Source: Parcubacteria group bacterium | GTDB taxonomy: Bacteria > Patescibacteriota > Minisyncoccia > Phycocordibacterales > Phycocordibacteraceae | Length of the DNA stretch: 64,000 nt | Assembly (NCBI GenBank): GCA_028286615.1 | Contig: JAQBRG010000002.1 | Location: 31,235 to 95,234, forward strand | Reading direction: 5' to 3' | In this document: one piece after another, positions 16,571 through 42,272 of the stretch | Layout: each line of letters opens with the position of its first letter | Numbering within the stretch: the first letter of the stretch is position 1 | Notes under the pieces: generated by a model | Seen by the model: only the letters and a program-made list of their open reading frames with translations | What the model was told of the DNA's origin: nothing | Databases searched by the model: none | Position numbers and translations under genes: made by a program

Positions 16571-17854
16571 ATGGCTACATCGAAAAAGAAGGTTGCAAAG
16601 AAAGCAGCACCAAAAAAGGTTGCCGCAAAGAAACCTGTTAAGAAAGCCGCTCCTAAGAAAGCGGTTAAGAAGGCTGCACCTGCTAAGTCCGCCAAGAAAG
16701 TTCCTGCAAAGAAGGGAGCGCTTTCAAAGAACGGAAAAGCAATGGCCGTTGTGCGTGTTGCTGCAGGAGGCGCTAAAGCCAAGCTTGCTGTTGAGAAGGG
16801 AGACAAGGCTGAGAAGCTCGTACAGAAAGGAAAGGAGCGCGGCTACATTACCTACTCTGAGATTATTAAGGAGTTCCCGTACGTTGAAGACGACGTTAAC
16901 TTCCTTGAAGAACTCTACGAGCGTTTCGCAAGCAACGGCATCGACATCCTTGAAGGAGGCATGCTCGAAGATACAACTGACCAGTATCTCGCTACCCGCA
17001 ACATCAAGGGACGAGACTCTGCTACCTACGACTCCATCCAGATCTATCTTCGCGAGATTGGACAGTATCCTCTTCTAACCGCAAGCGAAGAAAGGGAACT
17101 GGCTAAGCGCATTGAGAAGGGAGAGGACGAAGCTCGCAACATCCTTGCGCGTTCTAACCTCCGTCTCGTTGTGTCTATCGCAAAGAAGTACGTAGGCCGT
17201 TCTCCGGACCTTACGCTCCTAGACCTTATCCAGGAAGGAAACCTCGGTCTCTTCAAGGCCGTAGACAAGTTCGATTGGAACAAGGGATTCAAGTTCTCAA
17301 CATACGCTACGTGGTGGATTCGCCAGGCTATTACACGAGCTCTTGCTGACCAGTCCCGCACCATCCGTATTCCGGTGCACATGGTTGAAACCATCGCTAA
17401 GTACAAGCAGATCTCTCGCCGTCTCGCACAGGCTCTAGGACGTGATCCTCAACCAGAAGAGATTGCTATTGAGATGGGTGTTGAGGTAGACAAGATCTAC
17501 CAGATCGAGAAAATAAACCAGGATACTCTTTCTCTTGAGAACCCTATTGGTTCAGATGATGACGATCGTTCAACCCTTGGTGACTTTATCGCAGATGACA
17601 AGATTCCTTCTCCGGTACAGGAGTCTTCAGAACGTATTCTTGGAGAGCAGGTTCGAGACATTCTCGAAGACCTCTCACCAAAGGAACGCAAGATTCTTGA
17701 GATGCGACACGGTCTTCTAGACGGCGTGTACCATACTCTTGAAGAGGTTGGAAAAGAATTCGGTGTTACTCGAGAGCGTATTCGCCAGATTGAGGCGAAG
17801 GCACTGGAGAAGATAAGGACGCATGAGAAGGCGAGGAGGTTGAAGAGTTATTAA
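16571..17854 (+). CDS. rpoD: RNA polymerase primary sigma factor (sigma-70 family) with Lys/Ala-rich histone-H1-like N-terminal extension
   Basis: Regions 1.2 through 4 are present ([23 protein letters not shown]; [18 protein letters not shown]; [14 protein letters not shown]; [18 protein letters not shown]). N-terminus is [43 protein letters not shown]. Confidence 0.92.
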
Positions 17855-17862
17855 AATTTAGT

Positions 17863-17888
17863 AAAAAGCCCGCTATGCGGGCTTTTTA
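17863..17888 (+). terminator. Rho-independent terminator after rpoD
   Basis: aaaaagcccgc-tatg-cgggcttttt. Confidence 0.7.
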
Positions 17889-18075
17889 CTAAACATACAG
17901 TTGTCTAAAAAAGTATCGAAGGATCTATTCGGATTAATAAAGATAAAAGCTCGGGAATGACTTAGAGACATGGATCCCTTTGAGATGAGTTCTCCGTCCA
18001 AGGCTTGTTAGAAAGTGTCAAATCGAGTTAATACTGCTACGCTCAATAAAAGGCATATAATAAACCTCGCCTCAT

Positions 18076-20139
18076 ATGAATATAGACAAGATCAGCATCA
18101 AAAATTTCCGTCTTCTTCAAGACGTATCTCTCTCGCTTGAAAAAGCGACAACGCTTATTGTGGGTAGGAATAACAGCGGAAAGACTTCTTTAACAGAGCT
18201 TATTCGCAGACTCCTCTCTGAAAAAAATGTATCGTTTCGTCTTGAAGACTTTTCTTTATGTGCACATGAGGAGTTTTGGAGTGCCTTTACTCTCCTTCAT
18301 GAAGAGACGACTGATGAGGAGGTTCGCAAAGCTCTTCCTGTTATTGAAGTATTGATGACAGTGAGTTATGAGAAAAACTCCGTCGACTTTGGTCCGCTTT
18401 CGAATTTCATAATTGATTTGAATCCAGATTGCACGTCCGCAATAATCGCAATCTCTTATCAGTTGGGAGACGGCAAAGTCAAAAACTTATTTGAAGGTCT
18501 TGAGTTTGATCAATCAGCACGTGGCGCTTTCTTTTTGGCAATGAAAGAACGTATCCCAAAGCTCTACAGTATCAGCCTAAATGCAATCGATCCGAACGAT
18601 ATTACGAATACTAAGGAGTTAGAATGGTCTAAGCTCCACACACTTTTAAATGTTGGTTTTATTAATGCACAAAGAGGACTGGATGACGAGACATATAAGG
18701 ACAAAGATATTCTCGGAAAGATTCTTGAGATTCTCTTTACAACAGCACTTGCAGAATCAGCTGACGAAAGTGACCGAAAGACTGCTCAAGATTTGGAAAT
18801 AGCCGTAAAAGGAGTTCAACATGATATTGATTTAGACTTCAATGAGAACCTAAGGAAGCTCGTGCCCGCCTTATCATTATTTGGTTATCCGGGTCTTGCG
18901 GATCCAGGACTTCTAACGGAAACAACCCTGGATGTTAAACGGCTCCTGAAAGACAACACAAAAATTAGATACACCGGCGTAAACGGCATAAGTCTACCTG
19001 AGGCCTTTAATGGTTTAGGTGCACGTAATCTTATATTCATACTCCTCAAACTTTTGGAGTTTTTCAAGACTTACAAGGCTAGTGCAGATACTCCAGGAAT
19101 TCAAGTGGTTTTTATAGAGGAGCCCGAGGCGCATCTGCATCCACAGATGCAAGAAGTCTTTATAAGACAGCTAGATGCCATAGCAAAGGTCTTTGCTGAG
19201 AAATATAACGGCGGTAATCCATGGCCTGTTCAGTTTGTTGTATCGACTCACTCATCCCATATTGCAAACGAGGCTTCTTTCGACGCTACAAGGTACTTTA
19301 TTTCAACTCCAGAAGAAGTTTCTGGAAAAGTATTCTGTAAAACACGAATTAAGGATCTGCGTGTAGGTTTGGATGGAGCTTCTGTTCCCGACAGAAACTT
19401 TTTGCATCAGTACATGACGTTGACTAAATCCGACCTGCTTTTTGCTGACAAGGCAATCTTAATTGAAGGGACGTCTGAACGTCTAATGCTGCCAAAGATT
19501 ATTCAACATGTAGATTTGTCTCAAGCTGAAGATGTAAAACTCGGTAGCCAATATATCACCGTCGTGGAGGTTGGCGGAGCTTATGCCCAAATCTTTTTTG
19601 AGCTTTTGAATTTTCTGGAACTTCGTACACTTATTTTAACTGATATTGATTCAGTGAAGACTGAGAGTGGAGCGGATACTGCTCACAAGAAGGCGTGCAT
19701 TGTTTCTGAAGGTGAACAGAGTTCAAATTCCTGCATAAATAATTGGTTTGTAGATGTTGAGTCTGTTCCCCAGCTTCTTTCAAAGACTTCGGACCAGAAG
19801 ATTGTGGGTATAAAGCGAATTGCTTACCAGGTTCCGGAAGCTGAAGGAGAGAGTTGCGGACGAAGTTTCGAGGGAGCTTTTATGCTCGCTAACCCCGTTC
19901 TTTTTGGTCTGGAGGGTAAGAGTATCCCTGAACGGGAGGCCGAAGTGTGGGATTTGACTAAGGGAATTCGGAAAACTCAGTTTGCTCTCAAGTACGGTAT
20001 TAATGAGACTGAATGGACCGCACCTTTATATATTCGTGAAGGGTTGCAATGGTTAGCAGGTGAACCGTCGGGTGTTCCGCATGCGACAACTGTAACAGTT
20101 GAAGAAACACACGATAACCACGAACAGAATATTTCTTAA
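18076..20139 (+). CDS. OLD-family ATP-dependent endonuclease (N-terminal ABC/AAA_15-type ATPase plus C-terminal Toprim), GajA-like
   Basis: Walker A: MNIDKISIKNFRLL...GRNNSGKTSLTE. Walker B: VVFIEEPEAHLHPQMQ. Toprim Glu: AILIEGTSERLMLPKI. Toprim DxD: LILTDIDSV. Confidence 0.8.
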   Translation: MNIDKISIKNFRLLQDVSLSLEKATTLIVGRNNSGKTSLTELIRRLLSEKNVSFRLEDFSLCAHEEFWSAFTLLHEETTDEEVRKALPVIEVLMTVSYEKNSVDFGPLSNFIIDLNPDCTSAIIAISYQLGDGKVKNLFEGLEFDQSARGAFFLAMKERIPKLYSISLNAIDPNDITNTKELEWSKLHTLLNVGFINAQRGLDDETYKDKDILGKILEILFTTALAESADESDRKTAQDLEIAVKGVQHDIDLDFNENLRKLVPALSLFGYPGLADPGLLTETTLDVKRLLKDNTKIRYTGVNGISLPEAFNGLGARNLIFILLKLLEFFKTYKASADTPGIQVVFIEEPEAHLHPQMQEVFIRQLDAIAKVFAEKYNGGNPWPVQFVVSTHSSHIANEASFDATRYFISTPEEVSGKVFCKTRIKDLRVGLDGASVPDRNFLHQYMTLTKSDLLFADKAILIEGTSERLMLPKIIQHVDLSQAEDVKLGSQYITVVEVGGAYAQIFFELLNFLELRTLILTDIDSVKTESGADTAHKKACIVSEGEQSSNSCINNWFVDVESVPQLLSKTSDQKIVGIKRIAYQVPEAEGESCGRSFEGAFMLANPVLFGLEGKSIPEREAEVWDLTKGIRKTQFALKYGINETEWTAPLYIREGLQWLAGEPSGVPHATTVTVEETHDNHEQNIS

Positions 20140-21881
20140 TGAGTCTTACATCTACAAAAAATCCGGCAGAAGAAGCAGCACAAGCAGCCCTTGATGCTGT
20201 ATATAGATGTATCACTGAACGCAAGAGCTTTATCCTCGAGGCAGGCGCAGGTGCAGGAAAAACATATTCGCTGATAAAATCTTTAGAGTTTCTATTAAAG
20301 AATTCTGGTCCAGAACTCAGAAGGCGACAGCAAAAAATAGCCTGTATTACTTTCACAAACGTTGCAAAAAACGAGATAGAATCGAGAACAGATAAAAACC
20401 CTATTATTCACTCGGATACAATCCACGCCTTCTGTTGGTCTTTAATTAGGAATTTTCAGCCAGAATTGAGAGTAGCATTACCATCTATAGGTAAATGGGC
20501 TGAAAGAATGACTGTAACCGAGGTTACAGATCTTGGATTAAGAGAAGTTGTCTATGACTTGGGATATCCTTCGATTGAGGAACATCAGATCAATCTGTAT
20601 CACGACGACGTGCTTGATTTAATTGTTACCCTCTTAGAAAAGCCAAAGTTTAGAACTTTTTTTCTTAGTCAGTATCCAGTTTTATTTATAGACGAGTATC
20701 AAGATACGAATAAGAAATTTGCAGACGCAATTCAAAGGCATTTCCTTGGGAAAGATGAACCCATACTGATAGGTTTTTTTGGAGACCACTGGCAGAAAAT
20801 CTACGGTGATGGTTGTGGAAAAATTGAACACGAGAGTCTGGATATTATTGAGAAGAATTCAAATTTTAGATCTGTTCCTGCCGTGGTAAACGTGCTTAAT
20901 GCCTTAAGGCAGGAACTTCCGCAAGAAGTCAAGGATCCTGACGCAGCAGGAACTGCAGCAGCGTATCATACGAATAATTGGGCAGGCGTTAGACGTACAG
21001 GCGCTCATTGGAATGGTGATGTGTCGTCGGAAGCAGCACATGCTTATCTCCTGAACTTAAGAACTAACTTGATAACACAAGGTTGGGATTTCGATCCCAC
21101 TAAGACTAAGATATTAATGCTTACACATAATGTGCTGGCTGAAGAGCAAGGGTACAAGAACTTCGCAGATGTATTTGAGAGAAATGAATCGTTTATAAAA
21201 AAAGAGGATAAATATGTTGCTTACTTTGTTGATACTCTCGAGCCTTTATGTGCTGCTTACGAAAATAAGAAGTTCGGGGATATGTTCACAGTTCTTGGTG
21301 GACGTAAACCCTTAATGATTACTCATCAAGATAAAATAAAATGGTCTGAAAGCATGAATGGACTTATTGCACTTAGACATACCGGTACAATAGGTCAGAT
21401 AGTTGAATATATTAGAGACAAGAAATACCCACGTTTACCAGAGGTTCTGGAGCGTAAAGAAAAGGAATTTGAGGATTTTGTTCTAGAGGATGGAGCTGAA
21501 GAACCTAAGAGTATTGGACGGCTTCGCGCACTTAAGAAGATTATGTACAAGGAGGTAATTTCATTTGCGCAATTTAGCAATGCTTATACTCCATTTGCGA
21601 CGAAACACAGTGTTAAAGGTGCTGAATTCGAAAATGTCCTCATTGTCTTGGGTCGTGGTTGGAGTCAGTATAATTTTGATCAAATGCTTACGTGGATGAA
21701 TACCACGGTTCCTGTAGATAAAATAGATACGTTTGAGCGTTCAAGGAACCTCTTTTATGTTTGCAGCTCTAGACCAAAGAAACGGTTAGCGCTTCTCTTC
21801 ACTCAAAAACTTGAGGATTATTCGCTCGGAGCACTAAGCACATTATTTGGATCTGAGGTCCATGCTTTACCTAATATTTAG
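20139..21881 (+). CDS. UvrD/PcrA-like SF1 helicase, GajB-like partner of the OLD nuclease
   Basis: Motif I AGAGAGKTYS, Ia ITFTNVAKNE, II FIDEYQDTN, III FGDHWQKIY, and C-terminal VKGAEFENVLIV. The start ATG overlaps the upstream stop (TAATG). Confidence 0.8.
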   Translation: MSLTSTKNPAEEAAQAALDAVYRCITERKSFILEAGAGAGKTYSLIKSLEFLLKNSGPELRRRQQKIACITFTNVAKNEIESRTDKNPIIHSDTIHAFCWSLIRNFQPELRVALPSIGKWAERMTVTEVTDLGLREVVYDLGYPSIEEHQINLYHDDVLDLIVTLLEKPKFRTFFLSQYPVLFIDEYQDTNKKFADAIQRHFLGKDEPILIGFFGDHWQKIYGDGCGKIEHESLDIIEKNSNFRSVPAVVNVLNALRQELPQEVKDPDAAGTAAAYHTNNWAGVRRTGAHWNGDVSSEAAHAYLLNLRTNLITQGWDFDPTKTKILMLTHNVLAEEQGYKNFADVFERNESFIKKEDKYVAYFVDTLEPLCAAYENKKFGDMFTVLGGRKPLMITHQDKIKWSESMNGLIALRHTGTIGQIVEYIRDKKYPRLPEVLERKEKEFEDFVLEDGAEEPKSIGRLRALKKIMYKEVISFAQFSNAYTPFATKHSVKGAEFENVLIVLGRGWSQYNFDQMLTWMNTTVPVDKIDTFERSRNLFYVCSSRPKKRLALLFTQKLEDYSLGALSTLFGSEVHALPNI

Positions 21882-22026
21882 CTTGAATTAGATAATTTGC
21901 AGCAATTTCTCTTTGCGTCAAATCCGAATTTCAAATGATTTCGTATCATACAAAGTATCACTGTTGTTTCTCGAGTTACCGAGGCATCAAGTCATAAGTG
22001 CAAAATTGCGCTAAGATTGCCTCTAC

Positions 22027-22830
22027 ATGAGGCTTTTTATTACCGACGACTGTAATGTAACGTGGGATCCGAAAGTTGATTACTTTCTCTACGGCGGCAT
22101 CGTTGTGCCTGATTCGGAAGCACGAGTACTTGCCGAACAGCTTCTTACCCTCAAGGCAGGAGCCGGGATTCGGAAGGAGAGGCCAGTTAAGTGGAGTAAT
22201 AACAAATGGAAGGGTGAAGCTCTTTTTAATGAAAAGATTCATGCAGCAATAAAAAATCAGGTATTGGACTTGGTGCGTTCATCGGGTGCGAGGATTATTG
22301 TATGTGTAAGCCCGCAAGGTTTTTATCATACAGGCACAATGAAGGGAGAAAAGGTACGGATGGCAATTGATGTTGAAACGCAGAAACGAACACAGCAGTA
22401 TGCGCTTAATGACGTTGTCGCTAAATTCCACTCTTATCTTGAGGAGGTAGATGATCAAGGCATGATCCTTGCCGACAAGTTCGGTCAGGGGGTTAAGGCT
22501 CACATGGACGAGCACTGCATGAATTCTTTTCCTAGGGGAAGAACTCCTACGCCACGTATAATTCATCCAATAATCCAGCTTGATAATGAGGAGAGCCATC
22601 TGCACCAGATAAACGATGTTGTTCTGGGATCGATTTATTTCTCTCTTCGAGAAATGGGTTTCAACTTTCTGCCAGCGATTCGTGACAACTTCTGGATGCG
22701 AGAGGTGGGGGATTATTCATCTATCCTCTACAAAGGATTTAATATATATCCTTTAAGACCCGCTAAGCGAGGCCTGGTTGCAAGTAACCAAGCACTAGAG
22801 CAAAAGTTTAATCGTCTAATTACTGTATAA
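22027..22830 (+). CDS. Hypothetical protein in defence island (possible divergent DUF3800-like)
   Basis: 267 aa. N-terminal MRLFITDDCN loosely resembles the LFIDESG N-terminus of the DUF3800 protein at 41553..42272. No other motif recognised. Confidence 0.45.
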   Translation: MRLFITDDCNVTWDPKVDYFLYGGIVVPDSEARVLAEQLLTLKAGAGIRKERPVKWSNNKWKGEALFNEKIHAAIKNQVLDLVRSSGARIIVCVSPQGFYHTGTMKGEKVRMAIDVETQKRTQQYALNDVVAKFHSYLEEVDDQGMILADKFGQGVKAHMDEHCMNSFPRGRTPTPRIIHPIIQLDNEESHLHQINDVVLGSIYFSLREMGFNFLPAIRDNFWMREVGDYSSILYKGFNIYPLRPAKRGLVASNQALEQKFNRLITV

Positions 22831-22843
22831 TTTAAATAAAGTT

Positions 22844-23167
22844 ATGAATGTCATAAGGGGAACACTTCATCGAGACAATTCAAGAGATAGTTACTGGTCC
22901 CGGATTTTGCTGAAGTCGTCTGAGAATAAAGGCGAGACTTTCGTATATGTATGTGCCTCGTATGAGTATTTAAATTACACATTAAATATTAAGACACTTA
23001 CAGATGAAGCTCTCCATGGATGGGTAGACGACGTCATCATCGAATGGACTGCAAAGGGAGACTCTATTTTTAAGAAACCTTTTCATATAGATGTAAAAGC
23101 TATCACAGAAGAAGGTCGTTTAAATGGTCTGGCATATCTAAGAAAGGAGGTAGTTCCCGCTGTTTAA
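22844..23167 (+). CDS. Hypothetical protein (107 aa)
   Basis: ORF 14 nt downstream of the previous gene with protein-like composition and no recognised family. Confidence 0.4.
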   Translation: MNVIRGTLHRDNSRDSYWSRILLKSSENKGETFVYVCASYEYLNYTLNIKTLTDEALHGWVDDVIIEWTAKGDSIFKKPFHIDVKAITEEGRLNGLAYLRKEVVPAV

Positions 23168-23235
23168 TATTTATCTTGTCCACATTTTAATTTCAGCATT
23201 TTCTTAACTTTATTTTAAATGGATTTAAGCCATAT

Positions 23236-24129
23236 ATGAGAGACTTTGTCTCTAACGCTCAAAATATGGAAACTGATATAATATTCTCAATGCCCGCAAG
23301 TGCCACTAACCGAATAGCTTCAAAACTCGAAACTGAGCCATACTTCAAAGAGAAGGATTTCTTGCTCTATAACGGAGACTCTATAGAGCTTCTGAATCAA
23401 ATGCCAGAAGAGTCTATAGATATGGTTTTCGCAGATCCTCCCTACAATCTTTCGAATGGAGGGTTTACTGTACATGCTGGAAAAATGGTAAGTGTTAATA
23501 AAGGGGATTGGGATAAGAGTAAGGGATTCGAAGACGACTACGATTTTCATTTTCGCTGGCTGCAAGCTGTACGGCGCGTATTAAAACCTCACGGAACCTT
23601 ATGGGTTAGCGGAACATACCACTCTATCTATCAATGTGGCCACGCGCTGCAAGCGCTAGATTTTCATATTCTGAACGATATCTCTTGGTTTAAACCGAAT
23701 GCGTCTCCCAACTTAAGTGGACGTTTCTTTACTGCTAGTCACGAGACAATTATCTGGGCTAGAAAGGAGAAAAAGGCTAAACACATTTTCAACTACAAGT
23801 TAATGAAAGAAGGGAACTGGCCAGAAGATGCTCTTAAGAAACCAGGCCTTCAAATGCGATCTGTATGGTCTATGGGAACTCCAAAACCTTCTGAAAAGAA
23901 GCATGGGAAGCATCCTACTCAGAAGCCGATAGATCTTCTTAAAAGAATTGTGCTATCAAGCACAAACGAGGGCGATGTCGTGCTTGATCCTTTCACAGGC
24001 AGCTCAACAACTGGTCTAGCTTCAATTACGCACGGACGCAAATTCATAGGTATTGATCTCGAGAAAGATTATCTTGATCTATCTATAAAAAGATATAAAG
24101 ATATCAACATGAATCCAAACCTGCTCTAG
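23236..24129 (+). CDS. DNA methyltransferase, beta-class amino-MTase (N6-adenine or N4-cytosine)
   Basis: Motif IV DPPY (VFADPPYNL) precedes motif I (VLDPFTGSSTTG), the beta-class order. NDISWFKPN is also present. Confidence 0.85.
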   Translation: MRDFVSNAQNMETDIIFSMPASATNRIASKLETEPYFKEKDFLLYNGDSIELLNQMPEESIDMVFADPPYNLSNGGFTVHAGKMVSVNKGDWDKSKGFEDDYDFHFRWLQAVRRVLKPHGTLWVSGTYHSIYQCGHALQALDFHILNDISWFKPNASPNLSGRFFTASHETIIWARKEKKAKHIFNYKLMKEGNWPEDALKKPGLQMRSVWSMGTPKPSEKKHGKHPTQKPIDLLKRIVLSSTNEGDVVLDPFTGSSTTGLASITHGRKFIGIDLEKDYLDLSIKRYKDINMNPNLL

Positions 24130-24131
24130 TT

Positions 24132-24932
24132 ATGCCCAAGAAACCATCATGGAAAGAAGAAGCTTGGGATACTCTACTAAAAAAGCTTTGGGACAATCGA
24201 GCTGAAGGAGTTACTTCTGTTGTGTATACAAAGGCTGATTTAAATCCAATTCTTTCGCAATACACACAATCTGGTCAAGGAGAGATACGAATATTCAACT
24301 CAAGTTCGAACGGACTCAATGCCTTAAAGCTTAGAGGTGTTAAGAAAATTCCTCTAACGAGAGATAGTTGGAGAATTGTTGAACGACCAGCAGCTATTGA
24401 ACTAAATGAACCTTCTGAAGGTGGCAAGTTTACTGCACAGCAAGAATTAACAGCTGGAATGATAGCGGGTATAGATGAGTCTATGCGTCATCGTTCTAAT
24501 CCTGGCGAGACAACGTTATTGGCTATAGCTAATCATATTGGAATAATTGCAGACTTTTACAACCTCAAGGACAAGGGGGTTTTGTTTACTGGAGGTAGAC
24601 AAAAAGCCGGTATTCATTTGGTCGTTGGGGATGCTGAACTAGACATGACCAAAGCTCAGATAGAAATCGATGGAGGGTTTGAATGGCGAGATAGTGTAGT
24701 AATTGCCGAAATGAAGAGCTCGTTTAAGCAAAAAGACTTCGACGTAAACCAAGCTCTTATTCCTATGCTGAAATGGCAGAAGTTACTTGTTGCCAAGAAA
24801 GTCTACTCTTTAGTTATGTTGGCTCAAACTAATAGGACTGGTATCGAATATTGGGCATATGATTTTGCGCATGAAGGGAAAGGTATTGGAATGAAAATAT
24901 CAAAGAGTAAAAAGTATCTTGTTGAAATATAA
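24132..24932 (+). CDS. Putative type II restriction endonuclease (PD-(D/E)xK candidate), cognate to the methyltransferase
   Basis: Starts 3 nt after the MTase stop. Candidate catalytic signature IEIDGG...(13 aa)...VVIAEMK. No other family assignment. Confidence 0.4.
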   Translation: MPKKPSWKEEAWDTLLKKLWDNRAEGVTSVVYTKADLNPILSQYTQSGQGEIRIFNSSSNGLNALKLRGVKKIPLTRDSWRIVERPAAIELNEPSEGGKFTAQQELTAGMIAGIDESMRHRSNPGETTLLAIANHIGIIADFYNLKDKGVLFTGGRQKAGIHLVVGDAELDMTKAQIEIDGGFEWRDSVVIAEMKSSFKQKDFDVNQALIPMLKWQKLLVAKKVYSLVMLAQTNRTGIEYWAYDFAHEGKGIGMKISKSKKYLVEI

Positions 24933-25473
24933 GTACGAAGTACGAGAAAGCAGTCGAGCAAAGCATGTACGTATAACCGTCCGTGAGAATGGGCAGGTAG
25001 TTATAACTAAACCAAAGAGAATGCCTTCATCGAAGGTAGAAGCTTTCGTTGCCAAACATGCGGACTGGATTGAAAGGGCGCAAGAGCGAATAGAGAAAAG
25101 AAAGCCAAGGCTTCCTAAGGAACAACTTCCACGTATACGTCGTAACTCGAAAGCATATAAAGAAGCTCAAGAACAAGCTCGTACTCTCGTCACAGCCCGC
25201 CTCATACATTTCAATAAGGTCTACAATTTCACATACGGCACCATATCCATACGTAACCAAAAGACTCGGTGGGGAAGTTGTTCAGCAAAAGGAAACCTTA
25301 GCTTTAACTACCGTATAGCTTTTCTTCCTCCAGAACTGGCAGACTACATAATTGTGCATGAGCTCTGCCACACGAAAGAGCATAATCATTCGCCTCGCTT
25401 CTGGGTAGAAGTAGCTCGCACTATCCCAAACTATTTAGCCTTACGAAACCAACTTCGAACCTATAGATTCTAA
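24919..25473 (+). CDS. DUF45/YgjP-like (WLM/M48-like) zinc-dependent hydrolase
   Basis: HExxH motif IIVHELCHTKEHNHSPRFW is characteristic of the DUF45 family. The ORF overlaps the upstream one by 14 nt. Confidence 0.65.
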   Translation: MLKYKYEVRESSRAKHVRITVRENGQVVITKPKRMPSSKVEAFVAKHADWIERAQERIEKRKPRLPKEQLPRIRRNSKAYKEAQEQARTLVTARLIHFNKVYNFTYGTISIRNQKTRWGSCSAKGNLSFNYRIAFLPPELADYIIVHELCHTKEHNHSPRFWVEVARTIPNYLALRNQLRTYRF

Positions 25474-25486
25474 AGAGTAAACAAAG

Positions 25487-25516
25487 GCCGCTCGAGCTGG
25501 GGCTCGAGCGGTTTTG
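25487..25516. terminator. Bidirectional rho-independent terminator between convergent genes
   Basis: ccgctcgagc-tggg-gctcgagcgg followed by tttt, with an A-run upstream so it serves both strands. Confidence 0.7.
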
Positions 25517-25530
25517 GTATTAACCAAGAA

Positions 25531-26106
25531 TTAGTATCGACGCCAGGCTCTTTCAGAACGTTTCTCGTAGATGATGGTGCGCGGATCTTCGCACACCGTC
25601 CACTCTTGTCCCGCCTCTTTTTTCTCAAACCGCGTTCTGGTCTGACTATCGTTGGATTTGAAATAGGCCAACTTGTCGTTGTGGAAGAGTTGGTGGCGTG
25701 GGAAAGTGCCGTTGAGTTTCACCAGATCCTGGCTCTCCCAGAGCACAGTCTCAATTGCAGTAGAGCCGCGCCGTTCCAGAATCTGTGTAACGCGATAGAA
25801 AGGAAGATTGGCGACCTGATCCAAAGCGTCCTTGTAGTTCGCATAGAGTCCCCACGGCCTTGCCAGAGACCCCTTTGCATTGGTGGCGATCACGAAGGCC
25901 AGATGGTCGCCTTTAATTGGCGTTAGCTGCCCCTCGGATGGGGGAGTCCAGCGTAAGCCGGGACTCCTTGCAACAAACGTCACTCCTTCGCGCAAATGAA
26001 AGAAAAGGTCTGCAACGTGCCGACCCTCTACTTTAATAAAGCCGAAGTTCTTCCCGTCACCCGCAATAAAGCGAGAAACGTATCCTGTGTCGAATTTAAA
26101 GGACAT
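25531..26106 (-). CDS. Cold-shock-domain (CSD) fusion protein, hypothetical C-terminal domain
   Basis: N-terminal YVSRFIAGDGKNFGFIKVEGRHVADLFFHLRE resembles the CSD core (GFGFI...FFH). About 120 aa of unknown function follow. Confidence 0.5.
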   Translation of the reverse strand: MSFKFDTGYVSRFIAGDGKNFGFIKVEGRHVADLFFHLREGVTFVARSPGLRWTPPSEGQLTPIKGDHLAFVIATNAKGSLARPWGLYANYKDALDQVANLPFYRVTQILERRGSTAIETVLWESQDLVKLNGTFPRHQLFHNDKLAYFKSNDSQTRTRFEKKEAGQEWTVCEDPRTIIYEKRSERAWRRY

Positions 26107-26203
26107 GTTAACCTCACTTCAAATGGGTTGTTTGCTGAATGTATTTAAGCACGTATAAGTACATACGTCAATAAACAGGGAGATTACGAGTCTTTGTCGT
26201 AAA

Positions 26204-29179
26204 ATGAATGTAATGGCATCAAGCGCAGCATTCGACGAGGCATACAAGAAGCTCAATAAGGAGCAGAAATTGGCCGTAGACAGCATAGACGGCCCTGTCT
26301 TTGTAATTGCGGGACCTGGCACGGGAAAGACCCAGGTTCTCACCCTACGCGTTGCGAACATCCTCCAGAAGACCGATACGCCCCCAGACGCTATCTTGGC
26401 CCTCACCTTTACGGAAAGTGCCGCTTCCAATATGCGAGAGCGTCTCTCGGCTATGATTGGCGGCACAACCGCCTGGAAGGTCCGTATGCACACCTTCCAC
26501 GGCTTTGCCGAGTCTCTTATCAGCCGATACCCAGATGCCTTCCCAAGGATTGTAGGAGGGCAGGTAGCAAGCGATGCTGAACGGGCTGAGATTATTGAGG
26601 CCGCCATACTCACAAGCGAAGTTACGCATCTTCGTCCCTATGGCGACCCTCTCTACTACTACCGTTTCGTTAGCGGTGCTATTCCAACGCTTAAGCGAGA
26701 AAACGTAACTCCAGAGAAGCTGCTCGAGCGAATAATAGAAGCTGAAGCAGACTTTGAAGCTATTCCAGACAAGTTCAATACAAAAGGAAAGTACGAAGGG
26801 AAGATGAAAGGAGATTTCTTAACCCTTCAGAAGAAGATAGAAAAGACCCGAGATCTCCTTACGGTATATAAAGCATATGAAGCAGGACTAACCGCACGCA
26901 AGCGCTACGACTTTGATGATCTTATTCTTGAAGCAGTACGAGGCTTAACCGAAGACGAGAACCTTCGTCTCCAGGTACAGGAAAGCACGCAGTATGTGTT
27001 AGCAGACGAACATCAGGACGCTAACGCCGCACAGAACGCACTCCTTGAACTCCTTACGGACTACGACGCTCGTCCCAATCTCTTTATTGTGGGAGACGAG
27101 AAGCAGGCTATCTATCGTTTCCAAGGAGCAGACCTCGATAACGTGCACTATTTCCGTGAACGCTTTACCGACACGAAGATAATCGCACTCATAGAGAACT
27201 ATCGCTCAACCCAAAGCATTCTCGATACCGCCCTCTCCCTCATTGTCGCGTCTCCAGACGAGCGTCTTTCTCGCGCTCCCTTGGTTGCTAAGAGCGATGC
27301 AAAGGCGAGACCTATAAGCGTTGTTGCGTGCGAGACTCCTGAACAAGAGGGTGCAGAACTTGCTACACGTATTAAAGCTCTAATAGAAGAAGGAACTAAA
27401 GCAGAAGACATTGCAGTGTTTGGGCGCACCAATAGCGACGTTAGTTTCCTAGTAGAAGAACTTAAGAAAGCAGACATAGCCGTGAGTGCAGGAGGAGAAA
27501 CAAGCGCGCTTAGGAACCGTTACGTACAGGCGCTCATACGACTCCTTAAAGCCATTGCAGAACCGAGAGACGAGAATCTTATTGGCATAATGACGCTCCC
27601 CGCATTCCCGCTTTCAGCTGCAGATGTGTGGCGCGTTATGCAGTATGCAAAGAAGGAACGTATGCCCGTACTTTCTCTTATGCGTTCTCCTGAGAAACTA
27701 AAGGAAGCTCGCCTTGGAGACGAAGCCGCAGCACTCGCGCTTGGTGCTCTTATAGAACAGCTCGTACGTGTAGCAACCATAGAGCGTCCTGCTGTTGTAG
27801 CTGAAGAAGCACTACGTCTTTCAGGTATTCTTCCTCGTATCCTTGGAGCACCAGACCGCGCAGAATCCCTAGCAGCTATTCGTGCACTACTCCGTACTCT
27901 TGAAGACCTTTCTCGAAGGGAGCACGACGCCATGCTCGCGCGTTCCCTCCAGATCCTAGATCTATACGAAGAAAGGAATATCTCTCTTACAGGAGACGTA
28001 ACAGAAGCTCCTGGAAAGGTTAAGGTTATGACCGTACACAAAGCAAAGGGAAGAGAGTTCCTCTACACCTTCATTCCTCGCCTCACAGAAAGCAGCTGGT
28101 CTACCCGTTCCCGTCCTGAGCATTTCCATCTGCCAGACATTCTTTCAGGAAGTGCAGAACTTGAAGACGAACGCCGCCTCCTCTACGTTGCTATTACGCG
28201 CGCCAAGAACCACGCAACCATTTCATACGCTGCAACTCGTAGCGACGGACGTGCTGACGCACCTTCTACGCTTCTTGAAGATCTAACAAAAGAACTGGTC
28301 CAAGAAGAAGTATCAAAGGCTACGTACGAAGACCCGCTTCTCACAGAACGCACCCCGAAGCGCGAAGGGAACCAGCCTTCCAAAGACGATCTTGAAACTC
28401 TCAAGCACGCATTCATTTCTCAAGGCCTTTCAGCAACAGCTCTCAACAACTATTTAGAATGTCCCTGGAAGTATTTCTATGTGAACCTGCTGCGTATTCC
28501 TGAAGCGGAGAACAAGTTCATGCTGTATGGAACTGCTGTGCATGCGGCTCTCCACAGATACGCACTTGAACGCAAGAAGGGCATAGATATTGGAGCGGAG
28601 GGACTTATCTCTTCCTTCACCCACACCCTTACACGTTCTCCTCTCTCAGACGCTGAACTCAAAGAACTCCAAGCAAAGGGAGAACGGTCTCTAGGACTAT
28701 GGTGGGAAGACAGGCACGTGAGCTGGCCAGAGCGCACTGAAGCCGAGCTTGCTGTTGAAGCCAAGCTCAAGCTTACAGACGGTACGGAATTTACAGTTAA
28801 AGGAAAGCTAGATCGTATAGATGAAACGAGTAACGGAGCGTCAGTTGTGGACTACAAGACTGGAAAGCCTAGAAGCCGCAACGAGCTTATGGGAAATACC
28901 AAAGAAGGCGACGGCAATTACTATCGCCAGCTCGTCTTCTACAAGCTCCTTCTCGCACATACTGAAACTCCTCGCGTTATGCAGGACGGCATTATTGAAT
29001 TCGTAGAACCAGATGAGAAGGGAAGAATACGTACTGAACTGTTCCCTATATCAAATGAGGCGATGGATGAGCTTGAGGCTCTTGTTAAGAAATCTGCAGA
29101 AGAGATACTCACTCTTTCGTTCTGGAATGAGCCGTGTAACGAAGTTGCGTGTCCGTGGTGCTCGATTCGTTTCAGTTAA
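26204..29179 (+). CDS. UvrD-like helicase fused to C-terminal RecB-family (PD-(D/E)xK) nuclease with Cys cluster (AddA/AdnA-like helicase-nuclease)
   Basis: Motif I GPGTGKTQVLT, II LADEHQDAN. Nuclease motifs GKLDRIDE and VVDYKTGK. Terminal cysteines CPWKYF...EPCNEVACPWCS (Cx4Cx2C) resemble a 4Fe-4S nuclease-domain cluster. Confidence 0.8.
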   Translation: MNVMASSAAFDEAYKKLNKEQKLAVDSIDGPVFVIAGPGTGKTQVLTLRVANILQKTDTPPDAILALTFTESAASNMRERLSAMIGGTTAWKVRMHTFHGFAESLISRYPDAFPRIVGGQVASDAERAEIIEAAILTSEVTHLRPYGDPLYYYRFVSGAIPTLKRENVTPEKLLERIIEAEADFEAIPDKFNTKGKYEGKMKGDFLTLQKKIEKTRDLLTVYKAYEAGLTARKRYDFDDLILEAVRGLTEDENLRLQVQESTQYVLADEHQDANAAQNALLELLTDYDARPNLFIVGDEKQAIYRFQGADLDNVHYFRERFTDTKIIALIENYRSTQSILDTALSLIVASPDERLSRAPLVAKSDAKARPISVVACETPEQEGAELATRIKALIEEGTKAEDIAVFGRTNSDVSFLVEELKKADIAVSAGGETSALRNRYVQALIRLLKAIAEPRDENLIGIMTLPAFPLSAADVWRVMQYAKKERMPVLSLMRSPEKLKEARLGDEAAALALGALIEQLVRVATIERPAVVAEEALRLSGILPRILGAPDRAESLAAIRALLRTLEDLSRREHDAMLARSLQILDLYEERNISLTGDVTEAPGKVKVMTVHKAKGREFLYTFIPRLTESSWSTRSRPEHFHLPDILSGSAELEDERRLLYVAITRAKNHATISYAATRSDGRADAPSTLLEDLTKELVQEEVSKATYEDPLLTERTPKREGNQPSKDDLETLKHAFISQGLSATALNNYLECPWKYFYVNLLRIPEAENKFMLYGTAVHAALHRYALERKKGIDIGAEGLISSFTHTLTRSPLSDAELKELQAKGERSLGLWWEDRHVSWPERTEAELAVEAKLKLTDGTEFTVKGKLDRIDETSNGASVVDYKTGKPRSRNELMGNTKEGDGNYYRQLVFYKLLLAHTETPRVMQDGIIEFVEPDEKGRIRTELFPISNEAMDELEALVKKSAEEILTLSFWNEPCNEVACPWCSIRFS

Positions 29180-41416: not shown

Positions 41417-41565
41417 TGCCCAATACGGGTGTCCGGGCCCCTTTCGCCCTATCTAGCAAGGTTGGTTTGAAAACCAATAATGTTAAGATAATTTTACGCA
41501 TATCTACTTGGGTATGTGATAGATGGAAAGGAGTCTGTGCCCATTATGGGTGTCAGGGTCCTTTT
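41417..41565. repeat. Two imperfect direct repeats (about 30 nt, 25/30 identical) about 120 nt apart in a convergent intergenic region
   Basis: Copy A is gtgcccaatacgggtgtccgggcccctttc (41417-41446). Copy B is gtgcccattatgggtgtcagggtccttttc (41537-41565). Each carries a ccc-N5-ggg mini-hairpin. Confidence 0.4.
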
Positions 41566-42272
41566 CTTTTTTGCACATTGTCAGGATTATCTAACTTATA
41601 AATAGAGACGTATTCTAGACTACAGTCGTGTGTCGTATCTACCAGTACATCTTTTGCCAACTTTCCTAAATAGTCAGCAAACTGAACAAAATCGGAATAA
41701 TCAGAATCTACCTGGGTAATATGTGAAAGTGACGGCAGATAGGATTTTTTTCTAAGATAATCTTTCAAGTTTTGCTCGTCCCTTTCATTTAACAGAAATC
41801 TGTCGAAGACAACTTCTATTTCTAGCCCTTTAGAAAATAATCCAGCATTATTCCTAGGCAAAATATCTTTCAAGAAGGTCTCCAGAGACCTTCTAATAAG
41901 AAAATTACTAAACCTCTTCGGGTTATGGCTAAACTTTTCATTACCCACTTCTAAATATGGGCCAGTATAGTTCTTCTTTGTTATGTGAAATATTCCTAAT
42001 TCGATACCTGGATTCTCGCTACATATTTCAAATAACTCACATAATTTCTTTTTGAATTTTGGAGTGATATATCGTTTTAGTTCTTTCCCCGCATCCTGAA
42101 AATAGCGGAAGCGAGAAAGGTGCTGCGAGATAACCTTTAGACTGCTGCGCGTAACAGCAACTATGTTCAATTGGTAGAAAGTACTGCTGTCGGGAGATTC
42201 CAAAGAACCCGGGTCTCCGCTTTCGTCTATGAAAAGGAATATTCGTTCTGGATTCTCTGGGTCTATATACAC
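41553..42272 (-). CDS. DUF3800-family protein
   Basis: N-terminal ERIFLFIDESGDPGS is the DUF3800 hallmark. Length is 239 aa. Confidence 0.6.
   Translation of the reverse strand: MYIDPENPERIFLFIDESGDPGSLESPDSSTFYQLNIVAVTRSSLKVISQHLSRFRYFQDAGKELKRYITPKFKKKLCELFEICSENPGIELGIFHITKKNYTGPYLEVGNEKFSHNPKRFSNFLIRRSLETFLKDILPRNNAGLFSKGLEIEVVFDRFLLNERDEQNLKDYLRKKSYLPSLSHITQVDSDYSDFVQFADYLGKLAKDVLVDTTHDCSLEYVSIYKLDNPDNVQKRKGP

What the first reader, a model, noticed from the sequence alone, without database searches (positions are those of the whole stretch)
18076..21881. Translationally coupled OLD-family ATPase/Toprim nuclease plus UvrD-like helicase: a Gabija-like (class 2 OLD) defence pair, both proteins larger than canonical GajA/GajB
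Seen in sequence: the 687-aa ORF has the ABC-type ATPase Walker A (GRNNSGKTS) and Walker B (VVFIEEPEAHLHPQ). It also has Toprim Glu (ILIEGTSERLML) and DxD (LTDIDS). The adjacent 580-aa ORF has SF1 helicase motifs I, Ia, II (FIDEYQD) and III. The two genes overlap at TAATG.

Established: the Gabija system pairs GajA (OLD ATPase-Toprim) with GajB (UvrD-like). Class 2 OLD nucleases are genomically paired with UvrD/PcrA-like helicases.

Inference: this is an anti-phage module in a lineage where such systems are poorly catalogued. Each protein carries about 80-100 extra residues, so it may be a variant.
Basis: partly seen in the sequence, partly recalled or inferred. Interest (0 to 1): 0.75.

Follow-up and report, generated by a model that had tools for sequence, protein, structure and literature searches.

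The report
Ordinary Gabija defence pair in CPR bacterium
The two overlapping genes are a standard Gabija anti-phage system (GajA nuclease plus GajB helicase-like partner) of a common, already catalogued long-form subfamily, carried on a small horizontally acquired island in a Patescibacteria (CPR) genome; it is real but ordinary.

Summary

The "larger than canonical" point holds only against B. cereus GajA/GajB. The best 120 homologues of each protein are the same size as here, and thousands more match. The same long pair sits on conjugative plasmids of cultured Proteobacteria.

The helicase is not housekeeping. The 80 reference genomes fetched around the flanking rpoD all lack the pair. It lies in a low-GC block inserted between rpoD and a conserved AddA-like gene, next to a Type II restriction-modification pair.

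Gabija has already been reported in about 1.5% of Paceibacteria genomes.

Mechanism is inferred by homology: a nucleotide-gated GajA-GajB DNA-nicking complex.

Verdict: real, correctly identified, not novel.

The parts
17857..17893 (+). Perfect 17-bp hairpin followed by a T run: the rpoD terminator. It marks the left edge of the low-GC inserted block.
   Evidence: Inverted repeat I3, 100% complementary. Sequence read. GC falls from 0.49 in rpoD to 0.38 in the intergenic stretch.
18076..20139 (+). gajA: class 2 OLD-family nuclease, 687 aa. N-terminal ABC-type ATPase with an inserted helical (dimerisation-like) region, followed by a C-terminal Toprim domain and a helical domain.
18163..18189 (+). 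GajA Walker A (P-loop) GRNNSGKTS, aa 30-38, including K36.
   Evidence: G30, R31, N32, N33, G35, K36, T37 and S38 are invariant in 36 homologues.
19105..19146 (+). GajA Walker B / D-loop VVFIEEPEAHLHPQ, aa 344-357.
   Evidence: Aligned to BcGajA LIEEPE and TsOLD IIEEPE. Invariant positions F346-E351.
19456..19491 (+). Toprim metal-binding glutamates E464 and E468 within ILIEGTSERLML. E464 corresponds to BcGajA E379 and BpOLD E400. E468 corresponds to BpOLD E404.
   Evidence: Residue-level HMMER alignments to 8wy4/8jq9 and 6nk8. E379A is the catalytically dead BcGajA mutant (PMC10781630). E400 and E404 are defined in PMC6755086. Both positions are invariant.
19636..19653 (+). Toprim DxD: D523 and D525 within LTDIDS, corresponding to BpOLD D455 and D457.
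   Evidence: Alignment to 6nk8 'LTDLD'. Both positions are invariant.
19855..19881 (+). CGRSFEGAF, aa 594-602. R596 and E599 are invariant and S597 is nearly so. Candidate counterpart of the class 2 metal-B residues T506-x-E508.
   Evidence: Conservation only. No residue-level alignment was obtained, so this assignment is an inference.
19969..19995 (+). RKTQFALKY, aa 632-640, with invariant K633. Probable counterpart of the BpOLD catalytic lysine K562 (GKGRFA).
   Evidence: Weak second-domain alignment to 6nk8 and 6njv, not significant on its own. K633, F636 and A637 are invariant.
20137..20141 (+). TAATG: the gajA stop codon overlaps the gajB start codon by one base. No Shine-Dalgarno-like sequence lies upstream, which fits translational coupling.
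   Evidence: The same TTTTAATG junction occurs in the two closest relatives, L087 and L089.
20139..21881 (+). gajB: SF1A UvrD-like protein, 580 aa, with helicase motifs I-VI intact.
   Evidence: PADLOC GajB PDLC00113 4.4e-246, residues 5-573 on model positions 4-571 of 579. Pfam UvrD-helicase and AAA_19. Best solved-structure hit by sequence is BcGajB, 2e-8. AF2 model pLDDT 86.6. Fold matches UvrD/PcrA/Rep and then BcGajB.
20238..20270 (+). GajB motif I (Walker A) EAGAGAGKTYS, aa 34-44.
   Evidence: Invariant positions E34-T42.
20685..20708 (+). GajB motif II, the DEXQD-box Walker B, FIDEYQDT, aa 183-190.
   Evidence: I184-T190 are invariant. The DEXQD box is named as the GajB NTPase motif in PMC10781630.
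22027..23167 (+). Not part of Gabija. A separate conserved two-gene module lodged in the same island: a DUF3800-like 267-aa gene (22027-22830) and a 107-aa partner (22844-23167).
   Evidence: The same pair occurs in L090, L091 and L092 without Gabija. It is absent from L087, where the methylase follows gajB directly.
23236..24932 (+). Co-resident Type II restriction-modification pair: an N6/N4 DNA methyltransferase (23236-24129) and a DUF6997 protein, the probable restriction enzyme (24132-24932).
   Evidence: Pfam N6_N4_Mtase 5.9e-59 and DUF6997 3.3e-17. PADLOC MTase_II 4e-98 and REase_II 4e-8. The genes are 2 bp apart. Low GC, 0.39-0.41.

Best explanation
This is a two-gene Gabija anti-phage system (class 2 OLD nuclease GajA plus UvrD-like GajB). 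It belongs to a widespread long-form subfamily of roughly 690 + 580 aa. It lies on a horizontally acquired low-GC island of about 7 kb, inserted between rpoD and a conserved AddA-like gene in a Patescibacteria (Paceibacteria/Kaiserbacteria-like) genome. The island also carries a Type II R-M pair and an unrelated two-gene module.

Shown here:
- The domain architecture of both proteins.
- Intact ATPase, Toprim and SF1 helicase motifs.
- The tight, translationally coupled gene pair.
- Conservation of that pair across phyla while the neighbours vary.
- The accessory, patchy distribution among close relatives.

Inferred from the B. cereus and Burkholderia homologues, which are only about 16-22% identical:
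- GajA tetramerises through its ATPase-inserted helical domain and docks GajB into a hetero-octamer.
- Nucleotide binding to the GajA ATPase keeps the Toprim nuclease off at normal NTP/dNTP levels.
- Phage replication lowers nucleotide pools, or otherwise triggers the complex.
- GajA then nicks or cleaves DNA by two-metal catalysis, using E464, E468, D523, D525 and probably S597, E599 and K633.
- GajB senses the DNA ends and hydrolyses (d)ATP/(d)GTP, which reinforces activation and stops phage propagation.
For: - Full-length, very high-scoring matches to curated GajA and GajB models, plus the Pfam architecture.
- Class 2 is treated as synonymous with GajA (PMC10568477).
- Catalytic residues map to BcGajA E379 and to BpOLD E400, E404, D455 and D457.
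- The C-terminal profile hits class 2 BpOLD and XccOLD first, and class 1 TsOLD does not appear at E<=1.
- By sequence, the best solved-structure hit for GajB is BcGajB.
- The pairing is conserved with otherwise different neighbours in Anaerolineales (beside BREX), Patescibacteria, cyanobacteria and a Sinorhizobium conjugative plasmid.
- Accessory nature: 0 of 80 reference loci around rpoD carry the pair. It is present at the same site in one related metagenomic lineage (L087: rpoD 92%, GajA 80%, GajB 81%). GC is 0.40-0.42 against 0.49-0.52 in the flanks.
- The mechanism model comes from PMC8136825, PMC10781630 and PMC10568477.
Against: - No experiment exists on this protein or on any member of this long-form subfamily that I could find, so the mechanism rests on distant homologues.
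- Characterised class 2 enzymes already differ from each other. BcGajA is a site-specific nickase, is inhibited by ATP and does not hydrolyse it. BpOLD is non-specific and does hydrolyse ATP (table in PMC10568477). Which behaviour applies here is unknown.
- The T506/E508 counterpart was not aligned, and the K562 counterpart was aligned only weakly.
- The GajB model resembles UvrD, PcrA and Rep more than BcGajB.
- CPR bacteria are generally thought to depend on scavenged nucleotides (my own knowledge, not tested here). The nucleotide-depletion trigger might therefore be tuned differently.
Confidence: 0.93

Rival explanations
1. A housekeeping DNA-repair or replication module: a PcrA/UvrD/Rep orthologue with an associated nuclease, serving the cell's own genome maintenance rather than defence.
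For: The helicase fold is closest to UvrD, PcrA and Rep. The pair sits beside core genes (dnaG, rpoD) and an AddA-like repair helicase-nuclease. Schiltz et al. originally speculated on a repair role for class 2 OLD proteins (PMC6755086).
Against: - NCBIfam PcrA, UvrD and Rep equivalogs score 39-45 bits against cut-offs of 911-1144.
- The pair is absent from all 80 related reference loci, several of which have rpoD directly abutting AddA.
- It has a low GC and GC3 signature.
- The same pair occurs on conjugative plasmids and next to BREX.
- It matches the defence models over their full length.
Confidence: 0.02
2. An OLD-family system of another class: stand-alone class 1 (P2 Old-like) sitting by chance next to a helicase, a retron-associated class 3, or a PARIS/Septu-type ABC ATPase system.
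For: The full-length sequence profile and phmmer rank class 1 TsOLD slightly above BcGajA. The retron Eco8 OLD and TsOLD are close structural neighbours. PADLOC AriA matches the ATPase half at 8e-51.
Against: - The helicase partner is conserved in every context examined, so the adjacency is not chance.
- No reverse transcriptase appears among the neighbours, and Rfam finds no RNA family in the window.
- ATPase and Toprim are fused in one protein, unlike PARIS.
- The PADLOC Old model gives 102 bits against 915 bits for GajA.
- The C-terminal profile finds class 2 structures and not TsOLD.
Confidence: 0.03
3. A mechanistically distinct long-form Gabija variant. The extra residues (about 60 in the GajA ATPase/dimerisation region and about 50 in the GajB accessory 2B-like region) would confer properties that the B. 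cereus system lacks, for example genuine helicase activity of GajB or a different trigger.
For: - The GajB model is closer to UvrD, PcrA and Rep (TMq about 0.5) than to BcGajB (0.36).
- BcGajB lacks the UvrD GIG motif, gating helix and separation pin, and does not unwind DNA (PMC10681800).
- The long form has a nearly invariant R-x-x-G-T-I-G motif at 413-419 in the 2B-like region.
- GajA has a nearly invariant segment at 264-300 that AF2 cannot place.
Against: - hhalign of the subfamily against E. coli UvrD aligns only motifs I-IV and does not align the GTIG region.
- The Foldseek ranking could simply reflect the conformational state or the size of the model.
- No coordinates were available for a superposition.
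- PADLOC already files this subfamily as plain GajA/GajB.
Confidence: 0.12

Closest known systems
Gabija (GajA/GajB) of Bacillus cereus VD045 (PDB 8SM3, 8U7I, 8J4T, 8JQB)
   Same: - The same two-gene architecture: an OLD-family ABC ATPase-Toprim nuclease followed by a UvrD-like SF1 protein.
- The catalytic Glu equivalent to E379 is E464, and the DxD and ATPase motifs are present.
- GajB carries the DEXQD box.
- BcGajB is the best solved-structure match for GajB by sequence.
   Different: - Only about 16-22% identity.
- GajA is 109 aa longer: about 64 extra residues between the Walker A and Walker B regions, about 30 between Walker B and DxD, and about 14 at the C-terminus. Residues 664-687 there are predicted with low confidence.
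- GajB is 86 aa longer, mostly between motifs IV and V, and its model looks more UvrD-like.
- The recognition sequence, ATP hydrolysis behaviour and oligomeric state are unknown here.
Class 2 OLD nucleases of Burkholderia pseudomallei and Xanthomonas campestris (PDB 6NK8, 6NJV; Schiltz et al. 2019)
   Same: - These are the best solved-structure hits for the C-terminal region by profile (5.9e-7 and 1.8e-5).
- E400, E404, D455 and D457 are conserved here as E464, E468, D523 and D525.
- The K562-like lysine (K633) lies in a matching K-x-x-F-A context.
- The gene lies in tandem with a helicase gene.
   Different: About 90 aa longer than those enzymes (594 and 595 aa). The T506-x-E508 counterpart appears as S597-x-E599 with different spacing from the DxD (72 residues against 49), and it was assigned by motif only.
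PADLOC GajA model PDLC00063 and GajB model PDLC00113 (the long-form Gabija subfamily), for example the pair on Sinorhizobium medicae plasmid NZ_CP149882
   Same: - End-to-end matches (1e-275 and 4e-246) to models of essentially the same length (679 and 579 positions).
- 52-63% identity to thousands of proteins of the same size in Bacteroidota, Chloroflexota, Cyanobacteria, Bacillota, Proteobacteria and Patescibacteria.
- The genes overlap or nearly abut in the same way.
   Different: Nothing architectural. The only differences are the host lineage (a CPR bacterium) and the insertion site.
Class 1 OLD (Thermus scotoductus OLD, PDB 6P74; P2 Old)
   Different: Class 1 genes stand alone, whereas here a helicase partner is conserved. 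The C-terminal profile does not find TsOLD. The PADLOC Old model scores about one ninth of the GajA model.

Membership tests
Gabija / class 2 OLD system | GajA is an OLD-family protein with an N-terminal ABC-type ATPase fused to a C-terminal Toprim nuclease domain. | tested here: met
   Pfam AAA_15 (residues 1-397) and OLD-like_TOPRIM (455-525). Walker A, Q-loop, signature, Walker B and H-loop motifs, plus the Toprim Glu and DxD, are present. The AF2 fold matches GajA and OLD structures.
Gabija / class 2 OLD system | A UvrD/PcrA/Rep-like SF1 helicase gene lies immediately downstream on the same strand, often overlapping. | tested here: met
   1-nt TAATG overlap. Pfam UvrD-helicase. The definition is taken from PMC6755086. 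The pairing is conserved in L082-L089 and L093.
Gabija / class 2 OLD system | Both proteins match curated GajA and GajB profile models. | tested here: met
   PADLOC PDLC00063 1e-275 (915 bits) and PDLC00113 4.4e-246 (816 bits), both over the full length.
Gabija / class 2 OLD system | Class 2 metal-A site and first metal-B residue: BpOLD E400, D455, D457 and E404. | tested here: met
   E464, D523, D525 and E468 align residue for residue to 6nk8 and to BcGajA E379. All four are invariant in 36 homologues.
Gabija / class 2 OLD system | Remaining class 2 catalytic residues: BpOLD T506, E508 and K562. | tested here: inconclusive
   K633 aligns to K562 only in a sub-threshold second domain. S597-x-E599, with invariant R596 and E599, is a motif-level candidate that was not aligned. 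No coordinates were available to check the geometry.
Gabija / class 2 OLD system | A class 2-type helical domain follows the Toprim core. | tested here: met
Gabija / class 2 OLD system | GajB carries the SF1A NTPase motifs, including the DEXQD-box Walker B. | tested here: met
   Motifs I, Ia, II (D185-E-Y-Q-D189), III, IV, V and VI are present and invariant in the subfamily. hhalign to E. coli UvrD gives 97.5% probability over motifs I-IV.
Gabija / class 2 OLD system | GajA and GajB assemble into a 4:4 complex. | not testable with these tools
   This needs co-expression with SEC-MALS or cryo-EM, or at least a multimer prediction. Only monomer models were possible here.
Gabija / class 2 OLD system | The system protects against phage, and both genes are required. 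| not testable with these tools
   This needs plaque assays. The context is consistent (a defence-type island with R-M), but that is not a test.
Class 1 OLD (P2 Old / TsOLD) | A stand-alone old gene with no associated helicase. | tested here: not met
   The helicase partner is present and conserved.
Class 3 OLD (retron Eco8-type) | An adjacent reverse transcriptase and retron non-coding RNA. | tested here: not met
   No RVT domain appears in the neighbouring ORFs. Rfam finds no family in the window.
PARIS (AriA/AriB) | The ABC ATPase and the Toprim nuclease are on separate polypeptides. | tested here: not met
   The two domains are fused in one 687-aa ORF. The AriA model matches only residues 1-397.
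Housekeeping UvrD / PcrA / Rep | Scores above the NCBIfam equivalog cut-offs and is conserved in synteny among related genomes. | tested here: not met
   Scores are 39-45 bits against cut-offs of 911-1144. The gene is absent from all 80 related rpoD loci.

The most novel reading that the evidence does not exclude
The long-form Gabija subfamily (about 690 + 580 aa), to which this pair belongs and for which I found no biochemical or structural study, might work differently from the B. cereus paradigm. Its GajB could retain UvrD-type dsDNA-binding or unwinding elements and act as a true helicase or translocase; the nearly invariant GTIG motif at 416-419 and the more UvrD-like predicted fold point that way. 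Its GajA carries a strictly conserved but unmodelled segment (264-300) that could be a new interface or sensor. In a CPR host that must scavenge nucleotides, the nucleotide-depletion trigger would also need a different set point.
Probability: 0.1. Interest if true: 0.45.

Novelty: already known. Interest (0 to 1): 0.15.

Why it matters
It matters little as a discovery. A routine PADLOC or DefenseFinder run would label this pair as Gabija. The proteins are already in NCBI as 'endonuclease of the OLD family' and 'helicase'. Gabija has also been counted before in Paceibacteria.

Its modest value is as a clean, well-bounded example of defence cargo in a reduced CPR genome, with three unrelated modules side by side: Gabija, a Type II R-M pair and a DUF3800 two-gene module. 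Close relatives differ at the same rpoD-AddA slot: one carries Type III R-M, one carries Gabija plus a methylase, and others carry nothing.

It is also a reminder that the structurally characterised B. cereus Gabija is the short end of the family. The most common long form remains uncharacterised.

Tried and rejected
- Megablast of the 3.8-kb pair against E. coli genomes, plasmids and phages found no match. The DNA is not a recent transfer from those collections.
- tRNA scan and Rfam scan of the whole window found nothing. There is no tRNA integration site and no retron RNA.
- Repeat search across 17700-26400 found no flanking direct repeats or att-like sites, only chance-level short repeats and two terminator hairpins. 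No integrase or transposase was seen among the ORFs scanned, so the insertion mechanism is unknown.
- The promoter scan gave fewer sigma-70-like sites than shuffled sequence (12 against 16.9) and none in the 220-bp stretch upstream of gajA. No promoter is claimed.
- The exact-sequence look-up of P0017 (Bacteroidota) was not on record.
- PHROGs gave nothing for the 267-aa, 107-aa, DUF6997 and 190-aa ORFs.
- The idea that the 267- and 107-aa ORFs are extra Gabija components was rejected. They recur as a pair without Gabija and are missing from the closest Gabija relative.
- The idea that the rpoD-AddA slot is a general defence hotspot is only weakly supported. The closest reference relative has Type III R-M there, but more distant ones carry transporters or SufB.
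- The equivalence of GTIG to the UvrD GIG motif was tested by hhalign against E. coli UvrD. The region does not align, so it is left open.
- The full-length sequence ranking that put class 1 TsOLD above BcGajA was examined. It disappears when only the Toprim/C-terminal region is used, and structure ranks BcGajA first.

Full report
OBSERVATION

The junction reads TTCTTAATGAGT, so the TAA stop of the first gene and the ATG of the second share one base. All quoted motifs are present at the positions implied. I additionally found the ABC Q-loop, a signature-like motif and the H-loop in the first protein, and SF1 motifs IV, V and VI in the second. Pfam gives AAA_15 (1.3e-52) plus OLD-like_TOPRIM (9.4e-16) for the first ORF, and UvrD-helicase (4e-20) plus AAA_19 for the second.

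WHAT IT IS

Against PADLOC-DB, the first protein matches GajA model PDLC00063 at E 1e-275 (915 bits). Residues 1-670 cover model positions 1-669 of 679. The second protein matches GajB model PDLC00113 at 4.4e-246 (816 bits), covering 4-571 of 579. The stand-alone Old model scores 102 bits, and the PARIS AriA model matches only the ATPase half.

NCBIfam equivalogs for PcrA, UvrD and Rep score 39-45 bits against cut-offs of 911-1144. The helicase is therefore not an orthologue of the housekeeping enzymes.

[quoted passage not shown] It treats class 2 as synonymous with GajA (PMC10568477). This locus meets that definition.

CLASS 1 OR CLASS 2?

By full-length sequence, the solved structures rank class 1 TsOLD (6P74) slightly above BcGajA. 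phmmer gives 3.8e-12 against 2.3e-9. A 36-sequence profile gives 63 against 49 bits. All of these are distant relatives, so I tested the nuclease half alone.

A profile of residues 440-687 finds class 2 BpOLD (6NK8, 5.9e-7) and XccOLD (6NJV, 1.8e-5) first, then BcGajA. TsOLD does not appear at E<=1.

The printed alignments map the catalytic residues as follows:
- BpOLD E400 and E404 map to E464 and E468.
- BpOLD D455 and D457 map to D523 and D525.
- BcGajA E379, the residue mutated in the catalytically dead E379A protein (PMC10781630), maps to E464.

All four positions are invariant in the subfamily. K562 aligns with invariant K633 (GKGRFA against RKTQFA), but only in a sub-threshold stretch. 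The T506-x-E508 counterpart is probably S597-x-E599, from conservation only.

THE HELICASE

BcGajB is the best solved-structure hit by sequence (2e-8), ahead of M. tuberculosis UvrD1 (1e-4). The AF2 model (pLDDT 86.6) has the SF1A fold. Foldseek ranks UvrD, PcrA and Rep (E 1e-17 to 5e-19, TMq about 0.5) above BcGajB (7.6e-13, TMq 0.36). hhalign of the subfamily against E. coli UvrD aligns motifs I-IV at 97.5% probability but nothing beyond residue 258.

ARE THE PROTEINS UNUSUALLY LARGE?

They are large only in comparison with B. cereus GajA (578 aa) and GajB (494 aa), or with BpOLD and XccOLD (594 and 595 aa).
- The best PADLOC models are 679 and 579 positions long.
- More than 5000 GajA homologues pass E<=1e-10. 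The top 120 are 673-748 aa at 54-63% identity (one is 80%). They are named from Bacteroidota, Anaerolineales, Nodosilinea and Patescibacteria.
- More than 3900 GajB homologues pass the same threshold. The top 120 are 566-612 aa and include Brevibacillus, Peribacillus, Nitrospirales, Micavibrio and Armatimonadota.
- tblastn finds the long GajA on 107 plasmids, 66 of them conjugative, from Sinorhizobium, Burkholderia, Phaeobacter, Rhizobium and others, at 52-54% identity over about 97% of its length.
- On S. medicae plasmid NZ_CP149882 a 675-aa 'ATP-dependent endonuclease' overlaps a 580-aa 'UvrD-helicase domain-containing protein' by 4 nt.

From the alignments, the extra GajA residues are spread out:
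- About 64 lie between the Walker A and Walker B regions, which is the ATPase and helical-insert part.
- About 30 lie between Walker B and DxD.
- About 14 lie at the C-terminus, where residues 664-687 are predicted with low confidence.

The extra GajB residues lie mostly between motifs IV and V. The size is a subfamily trait and does not mark a new variant.

HOST AND GENOMIC SETTING

The flanking genes are rpoB, rpoC, a HEAT-repeat protein, a histidine phosphatase, dnaG and rpoD upstream. Downstream lie an AddA-like UvrD/PD-(D/E)XK helicase-nuclease and a DsbA-like gene.

A scan of reference genomes with the rpoD protein returned 80 loci. All are Patescibacteria (Paceibacteria, Kaiserbacteria, Parcubacteria), and the best is 93% identical. 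NCBI names the exact GajA protein as coming from a 'Parcubacteria group bacterium'. An identical 8.8-kb contig exists in run SRR13312974.

tblastn of the window's proteins against the 80 loci shows a conserved order: rpoC-dnaG-rpoD-(gap of 60 bp to 6.5 kb)-AddA-like-DsbA. No locus has a GajA or GajB homologue, and in several rpoD directly abuts AddA.

GC drops from about 0.49-0.52 in rpoD, AddA and the neighbouring 190-aa ORF to 0.39-0.44 across gajA through the YgjP-like gene. GC3 falls as low as 0.31-0.37.

The closest relatives of this particular pair are themselves in CPR-like contigs.
- L087 and L088 carry dnaG-rpoD-GajA (80%)-GajB (81%)-MTase (80%) at the same site. They show the same low GC and the same TAATG junction, in a genome whose rpoD is 92% and rpoC 80% identical.
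- L089 carries the pair (79%) in a different context.
- Equally close genomes (L002, L004, L006; rpoD 92-93%) lack it.

That is the presence/absence pattern of an accessory element.

OTHER CARGO IN THE ISLAND

Downstream of gajB lie four further genes:
- A 267-aa ORF and a 107-aa ORF with no Pfam, PHROGs or strong PADLOC match.
- A Type II N6/N4 methyltransferase (PADLOC MTase_II 4e-98).
- Two base pairs further on, a DUF6997 protein with a weak REase_II match (4e-8). This is a probable Type II R-M pair.

The 267-aa protein belongs to a small DUF3800-like family. In three other contexts it is followed by a homologous 110-111-aa gene, never with Gabija. The pair is absent from L087. It is therefore an independent two-gene module and not a Gabija accessory.

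The YgjP-like gene at 24919-25473 is also found next to AddA in L002 and L006. It is probably backbone. No flanking repeats, integrase or tRNA mark the island.

HOW IT MOST LIKELY WORKS

The architecture, motifs, coupling and accessory distribution are shown. The rest is inferred by homology.

In B. cereus, GajA tetramerises and binds four GajB to form a complex of about 500 kDa that is required for defence (PMC10781630). GajA is a DNA-nicking endonuclease that is fully inhibited by physiological NTP/dNTP through its ATPase-like domain, and it is proposed to fire when phage replication depletes nucleotides (PMC8136825). GajB senses DNA termini and hydrolyses (d)ATP/(d)GTP (summarised in PMC10568477). 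It does not unwind DNA (PMC10681800).

I commit to this model for the present pair, with about 0.5 confidence in the details. Characterised class 2 enzymes already differ in specificity and ATP hydrolysis, and this subfamily is only about 16-22% identical to them.

COMPARISON WITH WHAT IS KNOWN, AND NOVELTY

The pair is a member of Gabija by every feature I could test. The quaternary structure and the phenotype could not be tested.

CPR defensomes have been surveyed. PMC12259885 analysed 3004 CPR genomes. Its source data give Gabija a frequency of 0.0146 in Paceibacteria and list an 'RM,Gabija,SoFIC' island in a Paceibacteria genome. The finding is therefore already known in kind, in subfamily and in lineage.

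RESIDUAL CURIOSITIES

Two points could make the long form mechanistically distinct.
- A nearly invariant R413-x-x-G-T-I-G419 motif lies in the GajB 2B-like region. It resembles the UvrD GIG motif that BcGajB lacks. hhalign does not support the equivalence.
- A nearly invariant GajA segment at 264-300 is one that AF2 cannot place.

I rate the 'distinct long-form mechanism' reading at about 0.1.

VERDICT

The feature is real and was correctly recognised as Gabija / class 2 OLD. It is not a variant and not in an uncatalogued lineage. Interest is low.

Noticed in passing
window 22027-22830 and 22844-23167 (+): A conserved two-gene module: a DUF3800-like 267-aa protein followed by a 107-aa protein with no known family. 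The same pair (267/268 aa + 110/111 aa; small partner 37-41% identical, E 1e-26 to 1e-33) occurs in a Pacebacteria genome next to a serine recombinase (L090) and in L091/L092 near a DNA methylase. It is never with Gabija. It is a possible uncharacterised defence or toxin-antitoxin-like pair, with only a weak PADLOC PDC-M04A hit (1.6e-4).
   Followed up: partly
window 41553-42272 (-): A second DUF3800 protein (Pfam PF12686, 1.5e-8) lies in another low-GC patch (41-43 kb, GC about 0.43), between an ABC-2 transporter pair and a histidine kinase.
   Followed up: no
window 23236-24129 and 24132-24932 (+): A Type II N6/N4 DNA methyltransferase is followed 2 bp later by a DUF6997 protein with a weak REase_II match (4e-8). 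The adjacency suggests that DUF6997 is the cognate restriction endonuclease. In L087 the homologous methylase (80%) is followed by a different 176-aa ORF.
   Followed up: partly
rpoD-AddA interval: window 17855-26203; L002 3311-9894; L087 6360-13000: The interval between rpoD and the AddA-like gene varies among related Paceibacteria from 60 bp to 6.5 kb. The closest reference relative (L002) carries a Type III R-M pair there (Mod 518 aa plus Res 782 aa). L087 carries Gabija plus a methylase. More distant relatives carry transporters or SufB. It may be a local hotspot for defence cargo in this clade, but the sample is small.
   Followed up: partly
window 18865-18975 (GajA aa 264-300): The segment FSLFGYPGL-DPGLLTETTLDV is almost invariant across 36 homologues, yet AlphaFold2 predicts most of it (aa 271-314) with pLDDT below 50. 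It probably becomes ordered only in the oligomer, or with GajB or DNA.
   Followed up: no
window 21375-21395 (GajB aa 413-419): A nearly invariant motif R-x-x-G-T-I-G lies in the helical 2B-like region of the long-form GajB. It resembles the UvrD GIG dsDNA-binding motif that B. cereus GajB lacks. hhalign against E. coli UvrD does not align this region, so the equivalence is unproven.
   Followed up: partly
window 24919-25473 (+) and hairpin 25481-25518: The YgjP-like metallopeptidase ORF overlaps the end of the DUF6997 gene by 14 nt if the TTG start is used. Homologues sit next to AddA in L002 (63%) and L006 (56%), so it is probably backbone despite its lowish GC (0.43). A strong terminator-like hairpin follows it.
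   Followed up: no
L082 1-18064 (Anaerolineales contig): A homologous long-form Gabija pair (55% and 53% identical) sits directly after a BREX-type cluster (BrxC/PglY, PglZ, a NERD/BrxD-like ATPase and a DEAD/Lhr helicase). It is followed by DUF6361 and another DEAD helicase gene. This is a large composite defence island.
   Followed up: no
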